In this document: piece by piece, positions 1-44,443 of the stretch
Layout of the letters: each line of letters begins with the position of its first letter
Position numbering within the stretch: position 1 is the first letter of the stretch
Source: a virus
Direction: 5' to 3' (one strand)
Virus genome (UHGV): UHGV-0035288
DNA length: 44,443 bases
Position numbers and translations under genes: made by a program
Notes under the pieces: generated by a model
What the model was told of the DNA's origin: nothing
Database searches by the model: none
Seen by the model: the letters and a program-made list of their open reading frames with translations, nothing else

Positions 1-43
1 AAAAAAGGTGAAAAGATTGCCCTGTACGCGATAGATCCAGATC

Positions 44-529
44 ATGCAGAAGCGTGAGCAAAAAGATAGCTGGCGCACACCGCCAGCTTTATTTAAACCA
101 CTGCGTCGGAAGTACCGATTCCGTTACGATATGGCGGCAAGCGACACCAACCACCTGCTACCGCGTTACTTCACTGCGGAGCACAGCGCGCTTGATGCGG
201 ACTGGGCAGAGTTGAAAGGGTGGAAATGGTGCAACCCGCCATATTCCGATCCGCTGCCGTGGGTCGAGTGCGCAGCGCACGGACGCCGGACCGTCATGCT
301 ACTGAATCAGGACACGTCGACGAAGTGGGCGAAGCTGGCCCGGAGGACCGCCAATATGATAATTCTTCTTGACTGGCGGATTAGATTCATTCACGCCGTC
401 ACCGGCGAAGTCGGTCCGAGCAATAACAAGTGCCAGCAATTAATAATATTTGACGAAGCGCCGCCAGTAGGCAGCGCACAAATTGAAATAATGAGCGAGA
501 GTGAGCTACATGAATATCTTAGTCGTTGA
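44..529 (+). CDS. dam: DNA N6-adenine methyltransferase, phage Dam-type
   Basis: ATG at 44; in-frame stop at 32-34 prevents upstream extension. 161-aa ORF with NPPY catalytic tetrapeptide (WKWCNPPYSD) typical of N6-adenine MTases. No clear SD; may be coupled to a gene crossing the window junction. Confidence 0.6.
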   Translation: MQKREQKDSWRTPPALFKPLRRKYRFRYDMAASDTNHLLPRYFTAEHSALDADWAELKGWKWCNPPYSDPLPWVECAAHGRRTVMLLNQDTSTKWAKLARRTANMIILLDWRIRFIHAVTGEVGPSNNKCQQLIIFDEAPPVGSAQIEIMSESELHEYLSR

Positions 530-734
530 CCGCAGTATGCGCGTCGTGGACGAAATTGTTAAACGCTACCAAATTAACCCGAGGGAGAACAAAGTGCGGC
601 GGGTCAGTCGCCCGGAGCAATTGCTCGGCCTGGACCTTACCGGCTGGCTTGTAATGACTGCTAGCAGCCATCTTGTGTGTGGCACGTTTTCCGCCCGTAT
701 TGTTCGTGAAAATTTGATCAAGGAGTTGAAATGA
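510..734 (+). CDS. hypothetical small protein
   Basis: Track ORF starts at GTG 501; first ATG at 510 preceded by GAGAGTGAG. Overlaps dam 3' end; stop overlaps next start (ATGA at 731). Confidence 0.35.
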   Translation: MNILVVDRSMRVVDEIVKRYQINPRENKVRRVSRPEQLLGLDLTGWLVMTASSHLVCGTFSARIVRENLIKELK

Positions 735-1201
735 AATTACTGATTTGCGATTTGGATGGCGTTATTAACGGCTCAAGCGATGCGCGTGCCGACCTGGTGC
801 CTGGCATAAAAACTAAATCCACCTTTTGGGCGAAGTGGCACAAAGCGCATATACGCGAAGATCTGAACATGGATATGCTGCCGCTGCTGACCATGTACAA
901 AGAGCAAGGCTTCGAGATCGCGTATCTGACCAACCGGCAGCGAGAATGTTGGGACACCACCGCCGAGCAATTGGAGGTATTCCCGGTAGGCCGGTTGTTT
1001 ATGCGCCACATGCTGGACGACACCCCGCCACCTGAGTTTAAGGCGTGCGCCGTGTTCAAAATGGTGTGCTATGCCGACGTGTCGGAACTGGTCATCATTG
1101 AAGACTGTCCGAAGAACATCGCGGCAATTCGTCGGGCGTGCGGCGATCTGGTCCCGAAGATTTATGCGATAAACGTTGCAAAATTCACTTGCAACCAATA
1201 G
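731..1201 (+). CDS. HAD-superfamily hydrolase (phosphatase-like)
   Basis: AGGAG at 721-725 then ATG 731. N-terminal LICDLDGV matches HAD motif I (DxDG). Confidence 0.55.
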   Translation: MKLLICDLDGVINGSSDARADLVPGIKTKSTFWAKWHKAHIREDLNMDMLPLLTMYKEQGFEIAYLTNRQRECWDTTAEQLEVFPVGRLFMRHMLDDTPPPEFKACAVFKMVCYADVSELVIIEDCPKNIAAIRRACGDLVPKIYAINVAKFTCNQ

Positions 1202-1265: not shown

Positions 1266-1757
1266 ATGAAAGCATACGAATACTGCAAAAACGCCGCCAC
1301 CACTATGGAACAGCGCGGGAAAGAAAACGGCTATGACAACGCGAAAGAAGAACGCAGCGCTAAACAGATCGCCGCCGTGTTTAACGCGCTTACCGGGCGC
1401 GACCTGTCCGAGCAAGAAGCCTGGACCTTCCTGATCTGCCTGAAGCTGGTGCGCCAGCACCGTAAGCACCAGGAAGATAATATCGTGGACCTGGTAGCGT
1501 ATGCCGCCCTGCTGGGCGAATCTTACATGACCGTGCATGATGAGATTCAGATCGACACAACGGCAGCACAATTCGAAAGCCTAAAAGGCTGGCATTCTTC
1601 CGCGGGCAAGACTGTTAAGGCCCGCGATTTTGGGGTCGTAGCCCCGGACGTCCAGCCTATGGTCGTGCTCACCGGCGAAGACGGGTCGAAAATCTGCATG
1701 ACGCAGGAAGATTTCCGCAACATGGAAAAAACACTGGTGACTGGCGCACTTAAATAA
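1266..1757 (+). CDS. hypothetical protein
   Basis: ATG at 1266; 163-aa ORF in early arm; no motif recognised with confidence. Confidence 0.5.
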   Translation: MKAYEYCKNAATTMEQRGKENGYDNAKEERSAKQIAAVFNALTGRDLSEQEAWTFLICLKLVRQHRKHQEDNIVDLVAYAALLGESYMTVHDEIQIDTTAAQFESLKGWHSSAGKTVKARDFGVVAPDVQPMVVLTGEDGSKICMTQEDFRNMEKTLVTGALK

Positions 1758-2401: not shown

Positions 2402-4123
2402 TTATTTCTTCAACGCCGCGATCTCGGACTTCAACTCCCCCACCTGCTTATTGAGATATTGAATACACCCCATCAAGTCCATCACGATCGGGTTAACGTC
2501 TACGGACGGTCGGTCTACCGTTTTCTCCCCGATCTTGTTGCCGTCTTCGTCGAGGATATCCTCGACGGGTACTTCGATGTGCTTGATGTATTGCGGCGCG
2601 ATTAACTCCGCTTCTTCGGCGATAATACCGAAGCGACGGCGTCCCTTCTCGTCATCCTTGTACACGAAGTTAACAAGACGCTGGCGGCTAATGCGGTCCA
2701 TGGCCTCGCTTGCGTCTGCCTCGGCAATATCTTTCTTATACTCGCGACCCGACGTACCTTGCAGCGCGAGAATTCCGCCGCTGGTTGGGAATGTTACAAT
2801 GATTTGCCCCGTGTTGCTTCCATCCCCGCGTCGCCTAATAAGGTTGACCGTAGATATGACCCCATCTTCCCCCGATACTTCCATTATTGTCCTTGCGCCA
2901 ACCTGCGTATCCGGCGTGGCATACCTATTCGATTTAAAGGTTACGCCAGGGTATCCCTGGTTCTGGATAGTAATAACCCCGTCGGAGTCAATTGGACCCA
3001 AAGAACGCAGGTTTTTCGCCGAGAAAGTGCCCAGGTCATTAAAATCATAAACGGCGGTGCGGTCGGTTGTTCGGTTGTACACACTCAGGCGCGCGTAGTA
3101 TTCAGCCCCGATCGCCGCTCTGATACGCCAGGCCATGTTCGCTTCTTGAATCCCATTAACGTTGTAACGAGAATAGATCCCCCCGCCGTCAATGGTAGTG
3201 CCGACTGAGGGTTGGGTGGCGTCTTCTTTTATTACCGTCCAGCTATTAGTCGCAGTGCCCGCGTCTAGTAAGGACAGCGCCCAGCGCTTAGTCGCGGCAT
3301 CCAGATCCGCAATGGGGTCCGATCCGACTCGAAGCGGGCCGGGAGGCATAAGGTTCCCCCACGACGCCGTTTTATCAGCAAGCCCAGCAAGGTTGCCGGA
3401 TTTGGTTAGCAGGTTATCCACGTTAACGCTTTGCGCCCACTCCTCGGCCTGATCGCGGAATCCCTGAGCGGCAGTGCTGGCAGCTTGCGCGTCCATCTTC
3501 GCAGTGTTGGCCTCATCCCTCATAACGCTGGTGTCAGCCTTGATCTGGTTCGTCTGGTCTTTGATGGCCTGCGTATCAGTCTTAATCTGGTTGGTCTGCG
3601 TCTTGATGGTATTGGTGTCGTTTTTGAAGCCTTCGGCCTCATTGCGAAATCCTTGCGCTGCTGCTTCCGATGCGGCGGCTTGTTGTTGCAGGTTGCGCAT
3701 CTCAACCGGGTCTACGTTCTTAAGCAATTCCGACAGGTAGCCCCATGACATACCCTGCATGACTTGCCCGTTCGGTAGCGTTACCGTGATTTCTTCAGCG
3801 TCTCCGAAGATTGCACGCCAGTTGTTTTCATCTGCGATCATCAAGCGCAACGCTTTCTGTGCCTGTACGGTAACGCCCATAGTTGCCAGCGACATGGTAT
3901 CGCGCTTAACGCCATCCCACGCGAGGCCGGTTGCCGTTGGGCCGTCGAACGGAAGCACCAGCGTTAGCGCGGTTGCACTTTCAATGGACGCAATCGCTAC
4001 GGTGTAGGGTACTTGGCCCACCACCAGCGTTAAGAAGTCGCCAGCTTTAAACGCCGTAAACGTTGTTCCGACCCCGACAACCGCCTTGCTGTTATTCGTT
4101 ACGGATAGTGTACCCGCTGCCAT
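2402..4123 (-). CDS. tail fiber with C-terminal intramolecular chaperone (peptidase S74-like) domain
   Basis: Start moved to ATG at 4123 (GAGGA SD 7 nt upstream). N-terminus MAAGTLSVTNNSKAVVGVGTTF is a phage fiber anchor-type motif; central heptad-like repeats (QTNQIKTDTQAIKDQTNQIK); C-terminal block (...RLVNFVYKDDEKGRRRFGIIAEE...) resembles the self-cleaving chaperone of endosialidase-type fibers. Confidence 0.75.
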   Translation of the reverse strand: MAAGTLSVTNNSKAVVGVGTTFTAFKAGDFLTLVVGQVPYTVAIASIESATALTLVLPFDGPTATGLAWDGVKRDTMSLATMGVTVQAQKALRLMIADENNWRAIFGDAEEITVTLPNGQVMQGMSWGYLSELLKNVDPVEMRNLQQQAAASEAAAQGFRNEAEGFKNDTNTIKTQTNQIKTDTQAIKDQTNQIKADTSVMRDEANTAKMDAQAASTAAQGFRDQAEEWAQSVNVDNLLTKSGNLAGLADKTASWGNLMPPGPLRVGSDPIADLDAATKRWALSLLDAGTATNSWTVIKEDATQPSVGTTIDGGGIYSRYNVNGIQEANMAWRIRAAIGAEYYARLSVYNRTTDRTAVYDFNDLGTFSAKNLRSLGPIDSDGVITIQNQGYPGVTFKSNRYATPDTQVGARTIMEVSGEDGVISTVNLIRRRGDGSNTGQIIVTFPTSGGILALQGTSGREYKKDIAEADASEAMDRISRQRLVNFVYKDDEKGRRRFGIIAEEAELIAPQYIKHIEVPVEDILDEDGNKIGEKTVDRPSVDVNPIVMDLMGCIQYLNKQVGELKSEIAALKK

Positions 4124-4140
4124 AGCTGAATCCTCATAAA

Positions 4141-4169
4141 TTGGTTGCAATCCTGGTCGAGCGGTGCAA
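4141..4169 (+). promoter_or_regulatory. TTGGTTGCA motif plus degenerate second copy (CGGTGCAAT) upstream of lipoprotein moron
   Basis: TTGGTTGCA at 4141-4149, GGTGCAAT at 4162-4169, 35 nt upstream of ATG 4204. Confidence 0.4.
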
Positions 4170-38227: not shown

Positions 38228-40515
38228 AAGACTTCGAACGCCTTTTTCTCGATACCGAGACATTTAGCGGGGTGGACCTGAAGAAAGTGGGCGCATACGC
38301 CTACGCAGAACACCCAACAACCGAGATTATGATTTGCACGTACGCCATAGACGAGGGCCGCGTGCAGACATGGGATTGCACCGAGTCCCCAACAATGCCG
38401 CGTGAACTGCGCAAGGCGCTCCGCCAGGTATCCCGCAAGAAAGCAAAAATAGTGATGGCTAACGGCCTCCTGTTTGACCGCCTGGTTATTCGCGAGAAGT
38501 GGGGCATTGACCTGCCGGTAGGCCAGATCGAGGATACCATGATTATGGCCTTTCGCCACGCGCTGCCGGGTAGCCTCGATATGCAGTGCCAGGTGTTGGG
38601 CGTCGACGCAGAGCACGCGAAGGATAAGGCGGGCAAGGCGCTGATCAAACGATTCTGTAAGCCAACCCCCAAGACCTACAAAATCCGCCGCTACACGCGC
38701 GAGACGCACCCCGAGGAGTGGGCTAAATTCCTGCGCTATGCCGCACTGGATATTATAGCGATGAGGGAAGTCTATTGGCGCATACCGGACTGGGGTAACA
38801 CGCCGAAGGAAGATGAAATCCTGCTTATTGACCAGTTGATCAACGACCGCGGCTTCTATGTGGACGTTGACCTGGCGAACGCCGCGATCAAAGCGGTGCA
38901 GGCGCATAAGGAAGAATTGAAGGAAGAAGCATGGGAGCGCTTCGGCGGTAAGCTGACAGGCAATGACTTCCTGCCAGCGCTGCGCGACCTGGCGCCTGCG
39001 TTCACAATCCACAACGCGCAGAAATCCACGCTTAACGACCTGCTGGAAGACCCGGACTTCCCCGACGAGGGCAAAGTGCTTATCGAGATGCGCCTCGGTG
39101 CGTCATCAACGGCATCGACTAAGTACAATCCGCTCGTTAATGGCTTATCCGCAGATGGTCGCCGTCGTGGGTGTCTCCAGTATGGCGGGGCGAAACGCAC
39201 GCTACGCTGGGCGGGCAAAGGCTTCCAGCCGCAAAACCTGGCACGCGGCGAGTATAGCGACGACCACGAAGGGAAGATTAAGCGCCGTGAAGGCGAGAGC
39301 GACGTTTCTTTTTGGGTCCGGTCGCACATGCTCACCAACGGCATCAACTCCCTGTTACGCGGGACAGCGCACTGGGCGTATGACATATCGAAGTTAACGG
39401 CCTCGACCGTTCGCGGGTGCATTATCCCGGCTAAGGGCAAGAAGTTTGTTGTAGCTGACTATTCTAACGTGGAAGGTCGCGGGCTTGCCTGGATCGCTGG
39501 TGAGAAAACCGCGCTAATGGTGTTTAGGGCGGGTCGCGATATCTATTGTGAAACTGCCGGTAAGATGTTTGGCCTCGACCCGGAATACATCAAAGCCAAC
39601 CGCAAAGACTTACGCCAGATTGGTAAGGCGTGCGAATTGGGGCTGGGTTATGGTGGCGGCGTTGCGGCGTTCCTGCAGTTTGCTAAAAACCTGGGCCTCG
39701 ACCTGTATGCGATGGCGGACGTCATGAAGGGCACATTCCCCGATCATATTTGGGCAGCGGCGAAACGGGGCTATGAATACGCCCGCATTAACGAAGCTAA
39801 GCGCCCGCCGAAGCCTGGCAAGAAAGACGAGCGCCCAACTTACATACTGCCGAAAAACGTGTGGTTGACGTGTGACGCGATCAAACGTATGTGGCGTGAG
39901 GCCCACCCGAAGACGGTAGCCTTTTGGGCAGAGCTTGAGGACGCGGTGTTGTGCGCAATCCGCAATCCGGGCAAAGCATACTGGGCTGGCGCGAACGTTC
40001 GCCCGGATGGTAAGAAAGCGCTCAAGATAGTCCGCACGAAGGCGAAGCATGACCCAACCTTCGACGAGGAGCGCGACGACCCGAACGCCGCAGGGTGGTG
40101 GTTGAAAATTGAGTTGCCGTCAGGGCGCATCATGAGCTATCCGGGCATTGCGCTGTCTGTCACTACCGAGATCGACGAAGATACCGGCAAGAAACGCACC
40201 AGCACCCGCATCAAATACCAGGGCGAGAATCAGACGACGCGCCAGTGGGGCTTCCAGTATACCTACGGCGGCAAACTGACGGAAAACATCGTGCAGGCGC
40301 TGTGTCGCGATATCCTCGCGTGGTCCATGCCTGGCGTTGAAGCCGCGGGGTATGAAATAGTCTTATCAGTGCACGATGAATTGATCACCGAAGTTCCGGA
40401 TACTGACGACTACACTACCGAGGAATTGTGCTCGCTGATGTGTGACCTGCCGATTTGGGCGAAAGGCTTCCCGCTTGCTGCGGAAGGCGACATTATGTAC
40501 AGGTACAGGAAATAA
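38224..40515 (+). CDS. DNA polymerase, family A, with N-terminal 3'-5' exonuclease domain
   Basis: 763 aa; GAGGA SD; Exo I motif FLDTETFSG near N-terminus; polymerase motif C SVHDELITEV near C-terminus. Confidence 0.9.
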   Translation: MKDFERLFLDTETFSGVDLKKVGAYAYAEHPTTEIMICTYAIDEGRVQTWDCTESPTMPRELRKALRQVSRKKAKIVMANGLLFDRLVIREKWGIDLPVGQIEDTMIMAFRHALPGSLDMQCQVLGVDAEHAKDKAGKALIKRFCKPTPKTYKIRRYTRETHPEEWAKFLRYAALDIIAMREVYWRIPDWGNTPKEDEILLIDQLINDRGFYVDVDLANAAIKAVQAHKEELKEEAWERFGGKLTGNDFLPALRDLAPAFTIHNAQKSTLNDLLEDPDFPDEGKVLIEMRLGASSTASTKYNPLVNGLSADGRRRGCLQYGGAKRTLRWAGKGFQPQNLARGEYSDDHEGKIKRREGESDVSFWVRSHMLTNGINSLLRGTAHWAYDISKLTASTVRGCIIPAKGKKFVVADYSNVEGRGLAWIAGEKTALMVFRAGRDIYCETAGKMFGLDPEYIKANRKDLRQIGKACELGLGYGGGVAAFLQFAKNLGLDLYAMADVMKGTFPDHIWAAAKRGYEYARINEAKRPPKPGKKDERPTYILPKNVWLTCDAIKRMWREAHPKTVAFWAELEDAVLCAIRNPGKAYWAGANVRPDGKKALKIVRTKAKHDPTFDEERDDPNAAGWWLKIELPSGRIMSYPGIALSVTTEIDEDTGKKRTSTRIKYQGENQTTRQWGFQYTYGGKLTENIVQALCRDILAWSMPGVEAAGYEIVLSVHDELITEVPDTDDYTTEELCSLMCDLPIWAKGFPLAAEGDIMYRYRK

Positions 40516-40793
40516 TGACACCAGAAGGCAAGATTCAAAGTCACCTGATGCGACGGGTGAAAGAGGTAGGCGGATTCTGCCGCAAAATGGCATGGGAGGG
40601 GCGCGCGGGTGCGCCCGATCTGATTATCATCATCAACGGCAAAATAGTGTTCGTCGAAGTGAAGCGCCCGGGCGGAAAACCGAAGCCACACCAGGTACGC
40701 GAGCATGAGCGGATGGCCCGCCGCGGTGCGGACGTTCGCGTCATAGACAACATCGCCTACTGTGATTTATTGGTTGCTGAATTGGTCGCATAG
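40515..40793 (+). CDS. VRR-NUC domain nuclease
   Basis: ATG 40515 overlaps polymerase stop (TAATG), AGGA SD; 92 aa; PD-(D/E)XK core PDLIIIINGKIVFVEVKRPGGKP...QVREHERM. Confidence 0.65.
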   Translation: MTPEGKIQSHLMRRVKEVGGFCRKMAWEGRAGAPDLIIIINGKIVFVEVKRPGGKPKPHQVREHERMARRGADVRVIDNIAYCDLLVAELVA

Positions 40794-40802
40794 CGGTATA
40801 GT
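40774..40802 (+). promoter_or_regulatory. sigma70-like promoter (TTGCTG-17-TATAGT) overlapping TTGGTTGC motifs
   Basis: TTGGTTGC 40770-40777 and TTGGTCGCA 40782-40790; inside the 3' end of the VRR-NUC gene. Confidence 0.45.
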
Positions 40803-40833: not shown

Positions 40834-41007
40834 ATGATTGAAGAAAAACGTTGCAGTAATTGCGGCTGCGTTAAACCGCTATCCCAGTTCCACAAATACA
40901 CCGGTAAGACTGCACGCAGCCCGGACGGGTATCGTGCCGAGTGCAAATCATGCCGCAATAAAAAAGAGCGCGAACGGCAGCGCCGCTACCGCGCAGAGCA
41001 AAAATAA
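40834..41007 (+). CDS. small Cys-rich zinc-ribbon-like protein (57 aa)
   Basis: GAGGA SD then ATG 40834; CSNCGC...ECKSC then basic tail KKERERQRRYRAEQK; own promoter and terminator; below ORF-track cutoff. Confidence 0.45.
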   Translation: MIEEKRCSNCGCVKPLSQFHKYTGKTARSPDGYRAECKSCRNKKERERQRRYRAEQK

Positions 41008-41014
41008 TTAATAC

Positions 41015-41038
41015 GGCGGGCTTGTCCCGCCATTTTTG
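41015..41038 (+). terminator. rho-independent terminator
   Basis: GGCGGG-CTTGT-CCCGCC hairpin followed by ATTTTT. Confidence 0.6.
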
Positions 41039-41050
41039 GTGGACATGACG

Positions 41051-41269
41051 ATGAAAGATCATTACCGACTCACCAAGCTGGGCGAATGTAAACCGGGCGA
41101 TCGCGTATGGTTTATTGCGGGCATGAATGACCCGCTGCCGTTGACGGTATGCTGGCAAAAATTTAAGAGCTTCCGGGCGACGGGTGTGCACATCGGGCAC
41201 CGCACCAACTACGACGCCACAAAAAGGAATTGGAACAGTGAAACCGAAGTCTGGAAAAAGGCGGAATAA
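41051..41269 (+). CDS. hypothetical protein
   Basis: Track start is TTG 41036; ATG 41051 has GGTGGA SD 7 nt upstream; 72 aa. Confidence 0.45.
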   Translation: MKDHYRLTKLGECKPGDRVWFIAGMNDPLPLTVCWQKFKSFRATGVHIGHRTNYDATKRNWNSETEVWKKAE

Positions 41270-41273
41270 AGAT

Positions 41274-42698
41274 ATGGCACGTTTCCGACGTCGCGAATAT
41301 CAGAAGTTGATAACCGCGTTCATCCTCAAGCATAAGCGATGCAATATATGGGCGACAATGGGGTCGGGTAAAACCGGCGCGACTATGTGGGCGCTGAATA
41401 AAATGTTCCAGACTGGTATCCTGTCCAACCAGGAGGACCGAGTATTGGTGCTGGCCCCGCTGCGCGTTGCATCCGGCACATGGCCCCCGGAACAGGAAAA
41501 ATGGCGCTTCCCCGCCTTGCTGGTAGTAGATGGCACTGGGTCGGAGAAGGACCGCATCGCCGCGCTTGAGAGCGACGCTAACGTGGTTTGTATCAACTAT
41601 GATGTAGTTGAGTGGCTTGTTGAGTATTGCGGCGACGAGTGGCCCTTTACGGTCGTGGTTGCCGATGAATCAACTAAGCTGAAAGGCTATCGAAGCAAGC
41701 AGGGGAGTAAGCGCGCCCGTGCGCTGGCAGCGATCGCACATAAGCGCGTCAAGCGCTGGATTAACCTAACCGGCACACCCGCACCAAACGGACTGAAAGA
41801 CCTATGGGGTCAGACGTGGTTTGTCGACGGTGGCGAACGCCTCGGCAGTAGCTATAAGGCATTCACGGATCGCTGGTTTATTAGCAAGCCGGTTAAGCCT
41901 GGCAGCTTCACTATGCAGCACGCCCCGCTAAAAAACTCCGAGAAAGAAATACAACAACGTCTGTCCGACGTATCCCTTACCGTTGACGCGGCTGAATACT
42001 TCGGATGTGACAAGCCAATCTATACGCCTGTTGTTGTGGACCTGCCTAAGAAAGCCCGCAAAATATACGACCAGTTCGAAGCGGAGCTATTTGCTGAACT
42101 GGAAAGCGGAACTGTGGAGGCCGCGAACGCTGCGTCGAAGACTATTAAGTGCCTTCAGCTTGCTTCGGGTGCCGTGTATAAAGTCGACGAAGACGGCGAG
42201 CGCACTGATGAATGGGTGAAAATTCACGACGCCAAACTGGACGCGCTGGAAAGTATCGTGGAGGAGTTGAACGGCGCGCCGTTGCTCGTCGCATACCAGT
42301 ACAAGCATGATCTGGCGCGTCTCAAGAAGAAATTCCCGCACGGCGTAGCGATGGGTAAGGGTAAGCAAGGGAATAAGGATATGGAAGCGTGGAACAGGGG
42401 CGAGATCCCCATCATGTTTGCACACCCGGCATCGGCGGGTCACGGACTTAACCTGCAGGACGGCGGACACCACCTTGCTATCTTCTCAGACACATGGAAC
42501 TTTGAGCACTTTTCGCAGATCGTGGAGCGTATCGGGCCGGTTCGCCAGATGCAAGCCGGGCACCCCCGTCCAGTATTTGTCTACATTATCCAGGCGCGCG
42601 GCACACTGGACGAACTGGTCGCCGAGCGTCGCGACAGTAAGCGCGATATTCAGGACGATTTGATGGAATACATGAAAGCTAAAAAGGCGCGCAAATGA
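41274..42698 (+). CDS. SNF2-family (DEAD/DEAH-like) helicase/ATPase
   Basis: Start moved to ATG 41274; 474 aa; Walker A MGSGKTGAT, DExx box VVADESTKLKG. Confidence 0.8.
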   Translation: MARFRRREYQKLITAFILKHKRCNIWATMGSGKTGATMWALNKMFQTGILSNQEDRVLVLAPLRVASGTWPPEQEKWRFPALLVVDGTGSEKDRIAALESDANVVCINYDVVEWLVEYCGDEWPFTVVVADESTKLKGYRSKQGSKRARALAAIAHKRVKRWINLTGTPAPNGLKDLWGQTWFVDGGERLGSSYKAFTDRWFISKPVKPGSFTMQHAPLKNSEKEIQQRLSDVSLTVDAAEYFGCDKPIYTPVVVDLPKKARKIYDQFEAELFAELESGTVEAANAASKTIKCLQLASGAVYKVDEDGERTDEWVKIHDAKLDALESIVEELNGAPLLVAYQYKHDLARLKKKFPHGVAMGKGKQGNKDMEAWNRGEIPIMFAHPASAGHGLNLQDGGHHLAIFSDTWNFEHFSQIVERIGPVRQMQAGHPRPVFVYIIQARGTLDELVAERRDSKRDIQDDLMEYMKAKKARK

Positions 42699-43390
42699 TA
42701 ATCTGGTCATTGTTTGACGGCAGCGGCTTGATGATTGAGCGTGCTGCCGAGGTGGGGCATAAGTGTTATTGCTTCAACTACTCCGAAGCCGACCACGGGT
42801 CGTACCTGGACTACCGGATTTATGGTCGCGGGATCCGATATCGCAATGAGTTTATTGATCTTGACTTTGTAGACCGCGCGATGAATGGCGATTTCGGTAC
42901 GCCGGATATCATCTACGCATTCCCGCCGTGTACTGATCTGGCGGTGAGCGGTGCACCAGCTTTCCCGCGTAAGCGTGCAAAAGACCCCGCCTTTCAGCTT
43001 AAGGCGGTGCGCACCGCGAAGATCGCCGCTTACCTGGGTGACTTCTTCGAAGTGCCATATATGATTGAGAATCCGCGCAGCGTGCTTTCCACACAGTGGC
43101 GTAAGCCAGACCACTCGTTTGACCCGTGGGAGTATGGTGGCTATCTGCCGGAGGATGACGTACACCCGTTGTTCCCGGAATACATCAACGCCCGCGATTC
43201 ATATCCGAAGCTGACCTGCTTATGGACCGGCAACGGCTTCCGTATGCCCGAGAAGAAACCTGTTTTCGTTGAAAAAGGGTACTCGAAGCAGTATAGTCGC
43301 CTCGGTGGTAAATCCGCTCGTACAAAATTAATCCGCTCACTCACCCCGCGCGGCTTCGCGATAGCAGTCAATGAGGAAAATTTAAAATGA
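42695..43390 (+). CDS. short DNA cytosine-C5 methyltransferase-like protein
   Basis: 231 aa; ATGA coupling to helicase; motif I-like SLFDGSG, motif IV-like FPPCTDLAVSG (catalytic Pro-Cys), ENV-like IENPRSV; too short for a canonical target-recognition domain. Confidence 0.5.
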   Translation: MIIWSLFDGSGLMIERAAEVGHKCYCFNYSEADHGSYLDYRIYGRGIRYRNEFIDLDFVDRAMNGDFGTPDIIYAFPPCTDLAVSGAPAFPRKRAKDPAFQLKAVRTAKIAAYLGDFFEVPYMIENPRSVLSTQWRKPDHSFDPWEYGGYLPEDDVHPLFPEYINARDSYPKLTCLWTGNGFRMPEKKPVFVEKGYSKQYSRLGGKSARTKLIRSLTPRGFAIAVNEENLK

Positions 43391-43710
43391 ATACTACATT
43401 CGAGGCCATTGATTTTTCGGTTGCAATGACTAACCAGTTATTCTCCTACGACAGCAAGACCGGCGTCATTCGCCTGAAGTCCACCGGATGTAAGATTGGC
43501 AACCTCAACACTGCCGATGGCGGCACGCGCATCGAATGCAACGGCAAGACGCTGTCTGGCGCACGCGTGGCGTGGATTATTGAGACTGGCAATACAATCC
43601 CTCCAGGCTATGCCGTAGTGTGCCGTCAACGCACACCAGGCCATTACGGCAACCGCATTAGTAACCTGTATCTGGTAGACGTTGCGCGCGACCCAAATTT
43701 TTATTCGTAA
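43387..43710 (+). CDS. HNH endonuclease
   Basis: 107 aa; ATGA coupling to MTase-like gene; ...CRQRTPGHYGNRISNLYLV matches His-Me finger H-N-SNL pattern of phage HNH proteins. Confidence 0.6.
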   Translation: MNTTFEAIDFSVAMTNQLFSYDSKTGVIRLKSTGCKIGNLNTADGGTRIECNGKTLSGARVAWIIETGNTIPPGYAVVCRQRTPGHYGNRISNLYLVDVARDPNFYS

Positions 43711-43715
43711 ATTGG

Positions 43716-43744
43716 TTGCATAATCATATTGGTTGCATTATATT
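43716..43744 (+). promoter_or_regulatory. sigma70-like promoter (TTGCAT-17-TATATT) built from two tandem ATTGGTTGCA motifs
   Basis: Motifs at 43712-43720 and 43729-43737; -35 at 43716-43721, -10 at 43739-43744. Confidence 0.55.
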
Positions 43745-43746
43745 GA

Positions 43747-43773
43747 GGGTGTCCGGTTGGGACGCCCTTTTTT
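43747..43773 (+). terminator. terminator-like hairpin immediately downstream of promoter
   Basis: GGGTGTCC-GGTT-GGACGCCC stem (one G-T wobble) followed by T6 (43768-43773). Confidence 0.5.
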
Positions 43774-43792
43774 AATACCTGGAGACAACACG

Positions 43793-44035
43793 ATGAGATC
43801 ATTATTTTTCGACTACGACGGCGACCTTCGATTTTGGGTGATACTCACCCTCATGTTTGCCGTTTGTATTTTCGTACCTACCGCGGCTATTTACTACTCG
43901 GAACGCTACGAATGCCGGACTGTGTACGCAGAGCAAACAGGTCGTAACACCCAATGGCGCTATGGTGTCTGCTGGGTTGAGATGGACGGCAAATTTATTC
44001 CTCGCGATGAGATTCGCACAACGGAGATTAAATAA
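43793..44035 (+). CDS. small membrane protein
   Basis: Track start 43733 precedes the promoter/terminator; ATG 43793 has GGAGA SD. 80 aa; hydrophobic helix FWVILTLMFAVCIFVPTAAIYY. Confidence 0.45.
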   Translation: MRSLFFDYDGDLRFWVILTLMFAVCIFVPTAAIYYSERYECRTVYAEQTGRNTQWRYGVCWVEMDGKFIPRDEIRTTEIK

Positions 44036-44443
44036 ATGAAAATTTTACAAGAAGAGAAGAATTACTGGGCAGCGCAATGCCTCGAAGCCCGCGAACAGGC
44101 CGAACGTGCGAACGCGTTGGCGGGCACCAACCAGGCGCTATATGAAGGAGAGAAGAAAGCGCGCCAGGAGCTAGCGGAGCGCTTCGGACTGCTATTCGAA
44201 TTGATGGGGATTATGCAGCGCACCGGATACACCACCAGCGTTGCACTAAACCGCATCACTGCCGAAGGGCTGCGCGATCATTGCAAACGTGCGGAGGAGT
44301 ACGTTCGTCCGAAGGGTCGCCAGTCTAAGATCGACAGGAAAGACCTTGTACTCATGGCGTGGCGCAACCCTACAAACGGCAGCATATACCCGAACGCGCG
44401 CCCGCTTAGTGCCGAGGAATCAAAGCGCGTGCAACGAATCATC
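44036..44443 (+). CDS. hypothetical protein, 3'-truncated at window end
   Basis: GGAGA SD then ATG 44036; open for 136 codons to the last base of the window with no stop. Confidence 0.45.
   Translation, partial: MKILQEEKNYWAAQCLEAREQAERANALAGTNQALYEGEKKARQELAERFGLLFELMGIMQRTGYTTSVALNRITAEGLRDHCKRAEEYVRPKGRQSKIDRKDLVLMAWRNPTNGSIYPNARPLSAEESKRVQRII

What the first reader, a model, noticed from the sequence alone, without database searches (positions are those of the whole stretch)
42695..43710. Short C5-methyltransferase-like protein translationally coupled to an HNH endonuclease, with a Dam-type MTase in the same arm
The 231-aa protein carries AdoMet-binding-like (SLFDGSG) and Pro-Cys catalytic-like (FPPCTD) motifs but is far too short for a canonical C5-MTase with a target-recognition domain. 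It is coupled by ATGA to a His-Me finger HNH nuclease. The same transcription unit, if it continues across the window junction, carries an NPPY N6-adenine MTase and a HAD phosphatase. The phage may modify its DNA in more than one way, and the MTase-HNH pair could be a modification-dependent nuclease module or a nucleotide-modifying enzyme rather than a DNA MTase.
Basis: partly seen in the sequence, partly recalled or inferred. Interest (0 to 1): 0.55.

Follow-up and report, generated by a model that had tools for sequence, protein, structure and literature searches.

The report
Known short phage cytosine methyltransferase gene
This is the ordinary, already annotated "Dcm-like" cytosine methyltransferase gene of a Dhillonvirus coliphage; a 54%-identical relative has been shown to make 5-methylcytosine, and the small nuclease-like gene after it is an unrelated neighbour, not a partner.

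Summary
A 231-aa ORF (42695-43390) carries FDGSG, PPC and ENP motifs. It overlaps by ATGA both the SNF2 helicase upstream and a 107-aa HNH-like ORF (43387-43710) downstream. A Dam gene (44-529) and a HAD/PNK-like phosphatase gene (731-1201) follow across the junction.

The window is a circularly permuted Dhillonvirus genome. It is 90-93% identical to many GenBank coliphages, which annotate this gene as a Dcm-like C5 methylase.

The MTase-HNH pairing is specific to the Dhillonvirus lineage. Relatives carry helicase-MTase-Dam without the HNH, or helicase-HNH without the MTase. The HNH-like protein is an I-HmuI-like core without a DNA-binding tail and without the canonical catalytic His, yet it is under strong purifying selection. 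A conserved terminator-like hairpin separates it from the Dam cluster.

Verdict: already known and of low interest. Open points are sequence specificity with such a small recognition domain, and the role of the HNH-like protein.

The parts
41274..42698 (+). SNF2-family helicase gene. The likely start is the ATG at 41274, as in relatives (1425 bp). Its stop overlaps the MTase ATG.
   Evidence: Pfam SNF2-rel_dom 2.5e-11 and Helicase_C. Annotated 'DNA helicase' in UHP65, 1425 bp. ATGA overlap at 42695-42698.
42695..43390 (+). Short (231 aa) Dcm-like DNA cytosine-C5 methyltransferase. Motif I is F7-G9-S10-G11, motif IV is P78-C79, motif VI is E125-N126-P127, a motif VIII-like segment is YPK172-L-T, and a motif IX-like segment is R214-S-L-T-P-R-G220.
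43387..43710 (+). HNH-like protein (107 aa): an I-HmuI-type core with no C-terminal DNA-binding domain. The canonical D-H is replaced by V78-C79. H86, N89 and N93 are conserved.
43711..43744 (+). Two direct copies of ATTGGTTGCAT, with a TTGCAT-17 nt-TATATT promoter-like arrangement.
   Evidence: Read from the sequence. Conserved in 13 Dhillonvirus loci. Below the threshold of the promoter scan.
43745..43775 (+). Terminator-like G+C-rich hairpin followed by a T-run. It probably ends the helicase-MTase-HNH unit.
   Evidence: 10-pair stem with 6 GC pairs and a T-run. The fold has z -2.2. The stem is kept by different sequences in L011 and L016.
43793..44035 (+). 80-aa hypothetical protein gene, first gene of the downstream cluster.
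   Evidence: phrog_18961 at 1.4e-51, matching from residue 21 of the 100-aa ORF. RBS GGAGA lies upstream.
44036..44443 (+). First part of a 154-aa hypothetical ORF that runs across the window junction.
   Evidence: Circular translation. A 465-bp CDS sits at the same place in UHP65.
1..57 (+). End of the junction-spanning 154-aa ORF. It overlaps the Dam start.
44..529 (+). Phage Dam-type N6-adenine DNA methyltransferase (161 aa, NPPY at residues 64-67).
   Evidence: Pfam PF05869 at 3.4e-36, 124.9 bits against a 28.1 cutoff. phrog_111 at 2.3e-54.
731..1201 (+). HAD-superfamily phosphatase (polynucleotide-kinase-phosphatase-like), 156 aa.
   Evidence: phrog_415 at 2e-36. Weak Acid_phosphat_B hit. 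A homologue in L085 carries PF25109 HAD_PNKP.

Best explanation
The 231-aa protein is an active, orphan, phage-encoded DNA cytosine-C5 methyltransferase of the compact 'phage Dcm-like' family. It sits in the replication module, translationally coupled to the SNF2 helicase. Mechanism, inferred from conserved motifs and established C5-MTase chemistry: AdoMet binds at the FDGSG loop; Cys79 of the PPC motif attacks C6 of a flipped-out cytosine; Glu125 of the ENP motif protonates N3; and the methyl group is transferred to C5. Newly replicated phage DNA, and incidentally host DNA, becomes 5mC-methylated. The target is probably CCWGG or a related short motif, and methylation would protect against restriction enzymes blocked by 5mC. 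The same activity makes the phage detectable by retron Ec86/Eco1. Together with the Dam gene, the phage most likely carries both 5mC and 6mA. The downstream 107-aa HNH-like protein is an independently inherited neighbour. It is a domesticated I-HmuI-type core domain of unknown activity, not a functional partner of the MTase. Shown here: homology, fold, motif conservation and gene-neighbourhood variability. Taken from the literature: 5mC formation by the K42 homologue. Inferred: activity and specificity of this particular protein, and its protective role.
Against: The window protein itself gives no Pfam or NCBIfam hit and no significant PDB sequence hit. Sequence similarity to PF00145 covers only motifs I-IV, profile positions 4-94 of 324. 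No motif X (GNAV) is recognisable, and only about 30 residues lie between the motif VIII-like and motif IX-like segments, so DNA recognition is unexplained. K176 of K42 Dcm is Leu173 here. CCWGG specificity in the K42 study was assumed from E. coli Dcm and supported only by msDNA motif mutants. I found no methylome data for any Dhillonvirus. The BASEL study reports Dhillonvirus phages as comparatively sensitive to RM systems and found no simple link between MTase genes and restriction resistance.
Confidence: 0.8

Rival explanations
1. The MTase and the HNH-like protein form one functional module: a restriction-modification-like or modification-dependent nuclease pair in which the HNH cuts DNA according to its methylation state.
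For: ATGA translational coupling is conserved in 14 Dhillonvirus-type loci. Both genes are under purifying selection.
Against: Only 15 of 80 MTase-bearing loci have the HNH-like ORF, and all 15 are Dhillonvirus-type. L024 has helicase-MTase-Dam directly. HNH-like relatives L084 and L085 follow the helicase with no MTase detectable at E<=0.01. The MTase is coupled by ATGA to the helicase as well, so overlap is simply the packing style of this arm. The HNH-like protein lacks the canonical catalytic His and any DNA-binding domain.
Confidence: 0.05
2. The HNH-like ORF is a free-standing homing endonuclease (I-HmuI type) that spreads by nicking or cutting HNH-less relatives near this locus. Its position next to the MTase is an accident of insertion.
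Against: It is fixed in essentially all Dhillonviruses: 145 of 162 records cover at least 80% of the 3.4-kb region. dN/dS is 0.01-0.09, which is unlike sporadic selfish endonucleases. It has no NUMOD, AP2 or HTH DNA-binding domain. The general-base His position is Cys, or Leu in L017.
Confidence: 0.2
3. The short MTase-like protein transfers something other than a methyl group (for example carboxymethyl from Cx-SAM), or acts on free nucleotides or RNA rather than on DNA.
Against: The K42 homologue produced 5mC in DNA by LC-MS. All the best fold matches are polynucleotide cytosine-C5 MTases, and none is a thymidylate-synthase-type nucleotide enzyme. I saw no accessory hypermodification genes in the arm.
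Confidence: 0.06
4. The protein is a catalytically dead MTase relic that serves as a DNA-binding or anti-defence decoy.
For: The protein is truncated relative to canonical enzymes. There is no Pfam hit.
Against: Every catalytic motif residue is invariant across the family. dN/dS is 0.02-0.05. The homologue is active, and its activity depends on the catalytic residues.
Confidence: 0.04

Closest known systems
Phage K42 / KarlJaspers (Bas06, Drexlerviridae) Dcm, the trigger of retron Ec86/Eco1 (Wang et al., bioRxiv 10.1101/2023.08.16.553469; Cell Rep 2024)
   Same: Almost the same length (236 vs 231 aa). 54% identity over the full length. The same catalytic Cys, Glu and first Lys. The same PHROG family. 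Both are phage-borne orphan enzymes.
   Different: The genome context differs: in KarlJaspers the gene has no helicase overlap and no HNH-like neighbour. The second Lys (K176) is Leu here. Activity has not been tested for the Dhillonvirus protein.
DNMT3A/DNMT3B catalytic domains (eukaryotic de novo C5-MTases)
   Different: Only 12-16% identity. The DNMT3 domains are about 280 aa with a clear motif X, and they work as dimers or tetramers with regulatory domains. The oligomeric state here is unknown.
Canonical bacterial C5-MTases (M.HhaI, M.HaeIII, E. coli Dcm; Pfam PF00145)
   Same: Motifs I, IV and VI, and the class I AdoMet MTase fold. M.HaeIII aligns over motifs I-IV.
   Different: About 100-240 residues shorter. 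The recognition domain is reduced to about 30 residues. Motif VI is ENP instead of ENV. Motif VIII has Lys instead of the QxRxR arginines. No motif X is recognisable. The window protein is below Pfam detection.
I-HmuI (HNH homing/nicking endonuclease of Bacillus phage SPO1, PDB 1u3e), compared with the 107-aa neighbour
   Different: It lacks the C-terminal DNA-binding domains. The canonical general-base His is replaced by Cys or Leu. A two-residue insertion carries a conserved His86.

Membership tests
DNA (cytosine-5) methyltransferase (PF00145, motifs I-X) | Motif I, the AdoMet-binding loop FxGxG | tested here: met
   F7-D-G9-S10-G11. F7, G9, S10 and G11 are invariant in 19 homologues.
DNA (cytosine-5) methyltransferase (PF00145, motifs I-X) | Motif IV, the Pro-Cys dipeptide with the catalytic Cys | tested here: met
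   P77-P78-C79-T80 are invariant. C79 aligns with C82 of K42 Dcm, which was mutated in the inactive variant.
DNA (cytosine-5) methyltransferase (PF00145, motifs I-X) | Motif VI, ENV with the catalytic Glu | tested here: met
   E125-N126-P127 are invariant, so the motif is ENP rather than ENV. E125 aligns with E128 of K42 Dcm.
DNA (cytosine-5) methyltransferase (PF00145, motifs I-X) | Motif VIII (QxRxR) basic residues contacting the target cytosine | tested here: inconclusive
   My reading of alignment A1 finds only a 'YPK172-x-T174' strand with an invariant Lys. K172 aligns with K175 of K42 Dcm, which was assigned by structural alignment to DNMT3A. There are no arginines.
DNA (cytosine-5) methyltransferase (PF00145, motifs I-X) | Target-recognition domain between motifs VIII and IX, and motifs IX and X at the C-terminus | tested here: inconclusive
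   Only about 30 residues lie between the motif VIII-like strand and the 'RSLTPRG' motif IX-like helix. The protein ends 11 residues later with no GNAV-type motif X.
DNA (cytosine-5) methyltransferase (PF00145, motifs I-X) | Score above Pfam's gathering threshold | tested here: not met
   The window protein gives no hit at E<=0.1. Relatives P0021, P0026 and P0057 score 28.5, 24.7 and 25.4 bits against a cutoff of 22, but only over profile positions 4-94 of 324.
DNA (cytosine-5) methyltransferase (PF00145, motifs I-X) | C5-MTase three-dimensional fold | tested here: met
DNA (cytosine-5) methyltransferase (PF00145, motifs I-X) | AdoMet-dependent formation of 5mC in DNA | not testable with these tools
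   Shown only for the 54%-identical K42 homologue, by LC-MS.
Compact phage Dcm-like MTases (phrog_757; K42/KarlJaspers Dcm) | Full-length homology, about 225-250 aa, same motif positions | tested here: met
   phrog_757 at 3.7e-82 over residues 1-229. 54% identity, E 1e-86, to KarlJaspers Dcm. 2888 homologues, of which the 120 listed are mostly 225-250 aa. 1512 phage records.
HNH_3 / I-HmuI-type His-Me finger endonuclease (107-aa neighbour) | Pfam HNH_3 gathering score | tested here: not met
   13.7 bits against a 24.8 cutoff, matching only profile positions 5-21.
HNH_3 / I-HmuI-type His-Me finger endonuclease (107-aa neighbour) | General-base His at the end of beta-1 (the 'DH' motif) | tested here: not met
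   The aligned positions are V78-C79. In L017 the Cys is Leu. Bona fide HNH_3 proteins in the same alignment have D-H.
HNH_3 / I-HmuI-type His-Me finger endonuclease (107-aa neighbour) | Metal-ligand Asn in the alpha-helix (..NL) and the beta-beta-alpha-Me core fold | tested here: met
HNH_3 / I-HmuI-type His-Me finger endonuclease (107-aa neighbour) | Attached DNA-binding domain (NUMOD, AP2 or HTH) typical of homing HNH enzymes | tested here: not met
   The protein ends at residue 107. Relatives P0137 and P0139 carry AP2 domains, and this one has none.
Phage Dam (PF05869) | Pfam gathering score and the NPPY catalytic motif | tested here: met
   124.9 bits against a 28.1 cutoff. N64-P-P-Y67 appear in the translation.
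Restriction-modification or modification-dependent nuclease module | MTase and nuclease inherited together across lineages | tested here: not met
   Co-occurrence is limited to the 15 Dhillonvirus-type loci of 80. Each gene is found without the other in related phages.

The most novel reading that the evidence does not exclude
With a recognition region of only about 30 residues and no recognisable motif X, this compact enzyme family may not be a true CCWGG 'Dcm'. It could be a relaxed or short-motif cytosine methylase, possibly working as a DNMT3-like dimer. That would explain why host Dcm in MG1655 did not methylate the Ec86 msDNA while the phage enzyme did. It would give phages broad rather than site-specific protection. 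Separately, the conserved HNH-like protein with a relocated His (H86) might be a new variant of the His-Me finger working with the helicase/replication module.
Probability: 0.25. Interest if true: 0.45.

Novelty: already known. Interest (0 to 1): 0.15.

Why it matters
It matters little for discovery. The gene is already annotated as a Dcm-like C5 methylase in well over a hundred near-identical Dhillonvirus genomes, and its family has a published activity and a published role as the trigger of retron Ec86/Eco1. Three things remain useful. (a) This is one of the most compact C5-MTase architectures (about 230 aa), and its sequence specificity has never been mapped directly. (b) The gene predicts that this phage is sensitive to Retron-Eco1 hosts and that its DNA carries 5mC plus 6mA. 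(c) The neighbouring HNH-like protein is a conserved but atypical His-Me finger domain of unknown role.

Tried and rejected
- Pfam and NCBIfam scans of the 231-aa protein gave nothing.
- PDB sequence searches with the single protein and with the family profile gave only insignificant hits: ToxD kinase at E 0.45 and M.HaeIII at E 0.19.
- The word-indexed search with the HNH-like protein found only 5 Dhillonvirus clusters. The exhaustive search found only 16 hits.
- A look-up of P0127 found no contig.
- A literature search for Dhillonvirus/HK578 methylome or 5mC data returned nothing relevant.
- The Danish wastewater phage paper and the PLoS Biol 2025 retron paper had nothing on this family.
- Site statistics for CCWGG, GATC and other palindromes showed no avoidance, so they do not discriminate between readings.
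- The sigma-70 scan did not call the TTGCAT-17-TATATT arrangement in the intergenic region.
- I rejected the thymidylate-synthase or dCMP-hydroxymethylase-type nucleotide enzyme reading, because no such fold appears among the matches.
- I rejected the R-M-like MTase-HNH module on the co-occurrence data.
- I rejected the decaying HNH pseudogene reading, because dN/dS is 0.01-0.09.

Full report
**What is there.** The window is a circularly permuted, complete Dhillonvirus genome. The 3.4 kb around the finding is 90-93% identical to more than 120 GenBank coliphages, including UHP65, UAE_MI-01, jat, SSL-2009a and the BASEL phage GeorgBuechner. Those records annotate the same gene as 'C-5 cytosine-specific DNA methylase' or 'Dcm-like C5 cytosine methyltransferase', followed by a 'putative HNH endonuclease'. 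The gene order in UHP65 is: helicase, MTase, HNH, two hypothetical genes, Dam, a hypothetical gene, phosphatase. The window has the same order once its ends are joined, and a 154-aa ORF runs from 44036 across the junction to 57.

**Checking the observation.** ORF 42695-43390 encodes 231 aa with SLFDGSG at residues 5-11 and FPPCTD at residues 76-81. Its stop overlaps the start of the 107-aa ORF 43387-43710 in an ATGA. Its own start overlaps the stop of the SNF2 helicase in another ATGA. Dam (44-529) scores 124.9 bits on Pfam PF05869 and has NPPY. The gene at 731-1201 is a HAD/PNK-phosphatase-like protein.

**What the short protein is.**
- The protein itself gives no Pfam or NCBIfam hit and no significant PDB sequence hit.
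- It matches phrog_757 'DNA methyltransferase' at 3.7e-82 over its whole length.
- It has 2888 homologues in the large protein collection; the 120 listed are mostly 225-250 aa.
- tblastn finds it in 1512 phage records, including T1-like, T5-sized, rV5-like, phi92-like and Klebsiella siphoviruses.
- In an alignment of 19 members down to 58% identity, these residues are invariant: F7, G9, S10, G11 (motif I); P77, P78, C79, T80 (motif IV); E125, N126, P127 (motif VI); K172; and R214-S-L-T-P-R-G220.
- Twelve of the 19 members hit PF00145 individually, three of them above the gathering score, but only over profile positions 4-94 of 324, that is motifs I-IV.
- An AlphaFold2 model is confident, with pLDDT 86.8 and pTM 0.87.

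The best matches are the enzymes with the smallest recognition domains. My reading of the alignment places a motif VII/VIII equivalent at '..EYGG..' and 'YPK172xT'. Only about 30 residues lie between that and a motif IX-like helix, and no motif X is recognisable. This part is inference, because the model coordinates could not be inspected.

**Experimental anchor.** A preprint (10.1101/2023.08.16.553469), later published as Wang et al., Cell Rep 2024 (reference seen), studied phage K42, a KarlJaspers/Bas06-like Drexlerviridae phage.
- K42 escapes retron Ec86 by losing a 711-bp dcm gene.
- Expressing this Dcm raises 5mC in Ec86 msDNA by LC-MS.
- A C82A/E128A/K175A/K176A mutant does not raise 5mC.
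- Mutating the CCTGG motif of the msDNA abolishes defence.

I fetched KarlJaspers (MZ501090). Its 711-bp 'Dcm-like' gene lies at 40087-40797. The product is 54% identical to the window protein over the full length (E 1e-86). C82, E128 and K175 align with C79, E125 and K172, while K176 corresponds to Leu173. So a protein of the same compact architecture is a working DNA 5mC methyltransferase. Shortness is a family trait, not a sign of a different function. One caveat remains. CCWGG specificity was assumed from E. coli Dcm and supported only indirectly. The control msDNA from dcm+ MG1655 had little 5mC, so the true motif of the phage enzyme is still open.

**Is it a module?** No.
- Among 80 IMG/VR loci carrying the MTase, only the 15 Dhillonvirus-type loci have the HNH-like ORF.
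- L024 (MTase 60% identical) has helicase-MTase-Dam, with the MTase and Dam ORFs overlapping.
- Another group of loci has the order VRR-NUC, MTase, helicase.
- The nearest HNH-like relatives sit directly after an SNF2 helicase (L084, 43% identity), or after the helicase plus a 60-aa DUF7167 protein (L085, 38% identity). Neither locus has a C5-MTase detectable at E<=0.01.

The slot downstream of the helicase is a variable region, and the two genes come and go independently. ATGA overlap is simply how this arm is packed.

**Transcription.** The 82-bp spacer after the HNH-like gene contains the following, in order: two direct copies of ATTGGTTGCAT; a TTGCAT-17-TATATT arrangement; a 10-pair G+C-rich hairpin with a T-run (43745-43775); and then an RBS and the ATG at 43793. 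The element is conserved in 13 Dhillonvirus loci. In L011 and L016 a different stem sequence still pairs. The helicase-MTase-HNH unit therefore probably terminates here. The Dam cluster may be transcribed separately, although read-through cannot be excluded.

**Other checks.** CCWGG (140 sites, O/E 0.91) and GATC (176 sites, O/E 0.85) are not avoided. That is compatible with self-methylation but is not diagnostic. The BASEL paper reports Dhillonvirus phages as comparatively sensitive to RM systems and found no simple link between MTase genes and resistance. I found no methylome data for Dhillonvirus.

**Verdict.** The protein is a member of an already known, already annotated and experimentally anchored family of compact phage Dcm-like C5-MTases. 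Dual 5mC/6mA methylation of the phage DNA is likely. The 'MTase-HNH module' and 'nucleotide-modifying enzyme' readings are not supported. The residual questions are the true recognition motif of such a minimal enzyme and the role of the atypical HNH-like protein. Both are modestly interesting.

Noticed in passing
window 43711-43792: A conserved intergenic element. It has two direct copies of ATTGGTTGCAT, a TTGCAT-17 nt-TATATT promoter-like spacing, and then a terminator-like hairpin with a T-run. The predicted transcription start would fall inside the hairpin's 5' arm, so the element may be an overlapping terminator/promoter switch between the replication genes and the Dam cluster. The stem is kept by different sequences in L011 and L016.
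   Followed up: partly
window 44036-44443 joined to 1-57: A 154-aa hypothetical ORF spans the window ends and overlaps the Dam start. The window is therefore a circularly permuted complete genome, and its length equals that of phage mckay (44443 bp), although identity to mckay over the searched 3.4-kb region (41000-44443) is only about 91%.
   Followed up: partly
L015 (SSL-2009a) 3693-4028; protein P0125: The HNH-like ORF of phage SSL-2009a is frameshifted after about residue 73, which removes the NRxxNL helix. This is either an old sequencing error or a natural knockout.
   Followed up: no
L084 271-612; L085 3112-3594: Distant relatives of the HNH-like protein (43% and 38% identity) sit immediately downstream of SNF2 helicases in phage contigs that lack the C5-MTase. 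This hints that the HNH-like protein is tied to the helicase/replication module rather than to methylation.
   Followed up: partly
L024 3689-4069: In this MTase-Dam relative the Dam ORF appears truncated at 126 aa, with the remainder in another frame. This is a possible frameshift or an assembly error.
   Followed up: no
window 1266-1757 and 1800-2375: A DUF6378 protein (Pfam 1.1e-09) and a 191-aa ORF with no Pfam hit lie at the end of the same rightward arm, just before the leftward tail-fibre gene (2402-4150).
   Followed up: no
and one search hit lists: Near-identical Dhillonvirus genomes are deposited under the names Acinetobacter phage NJ01 (host given as Acinetobacter baumannii) and Salmonella phage Kenya-K19, and one search also counts one Campylobacter-named record. 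In the separate protein search, Campylobacter-labelled phage records such as the ~135-kb A112b carry a 53%-identical homologue of the MTase. These host labels look doubtful for phages so close to coliphages.
   Followed up: no
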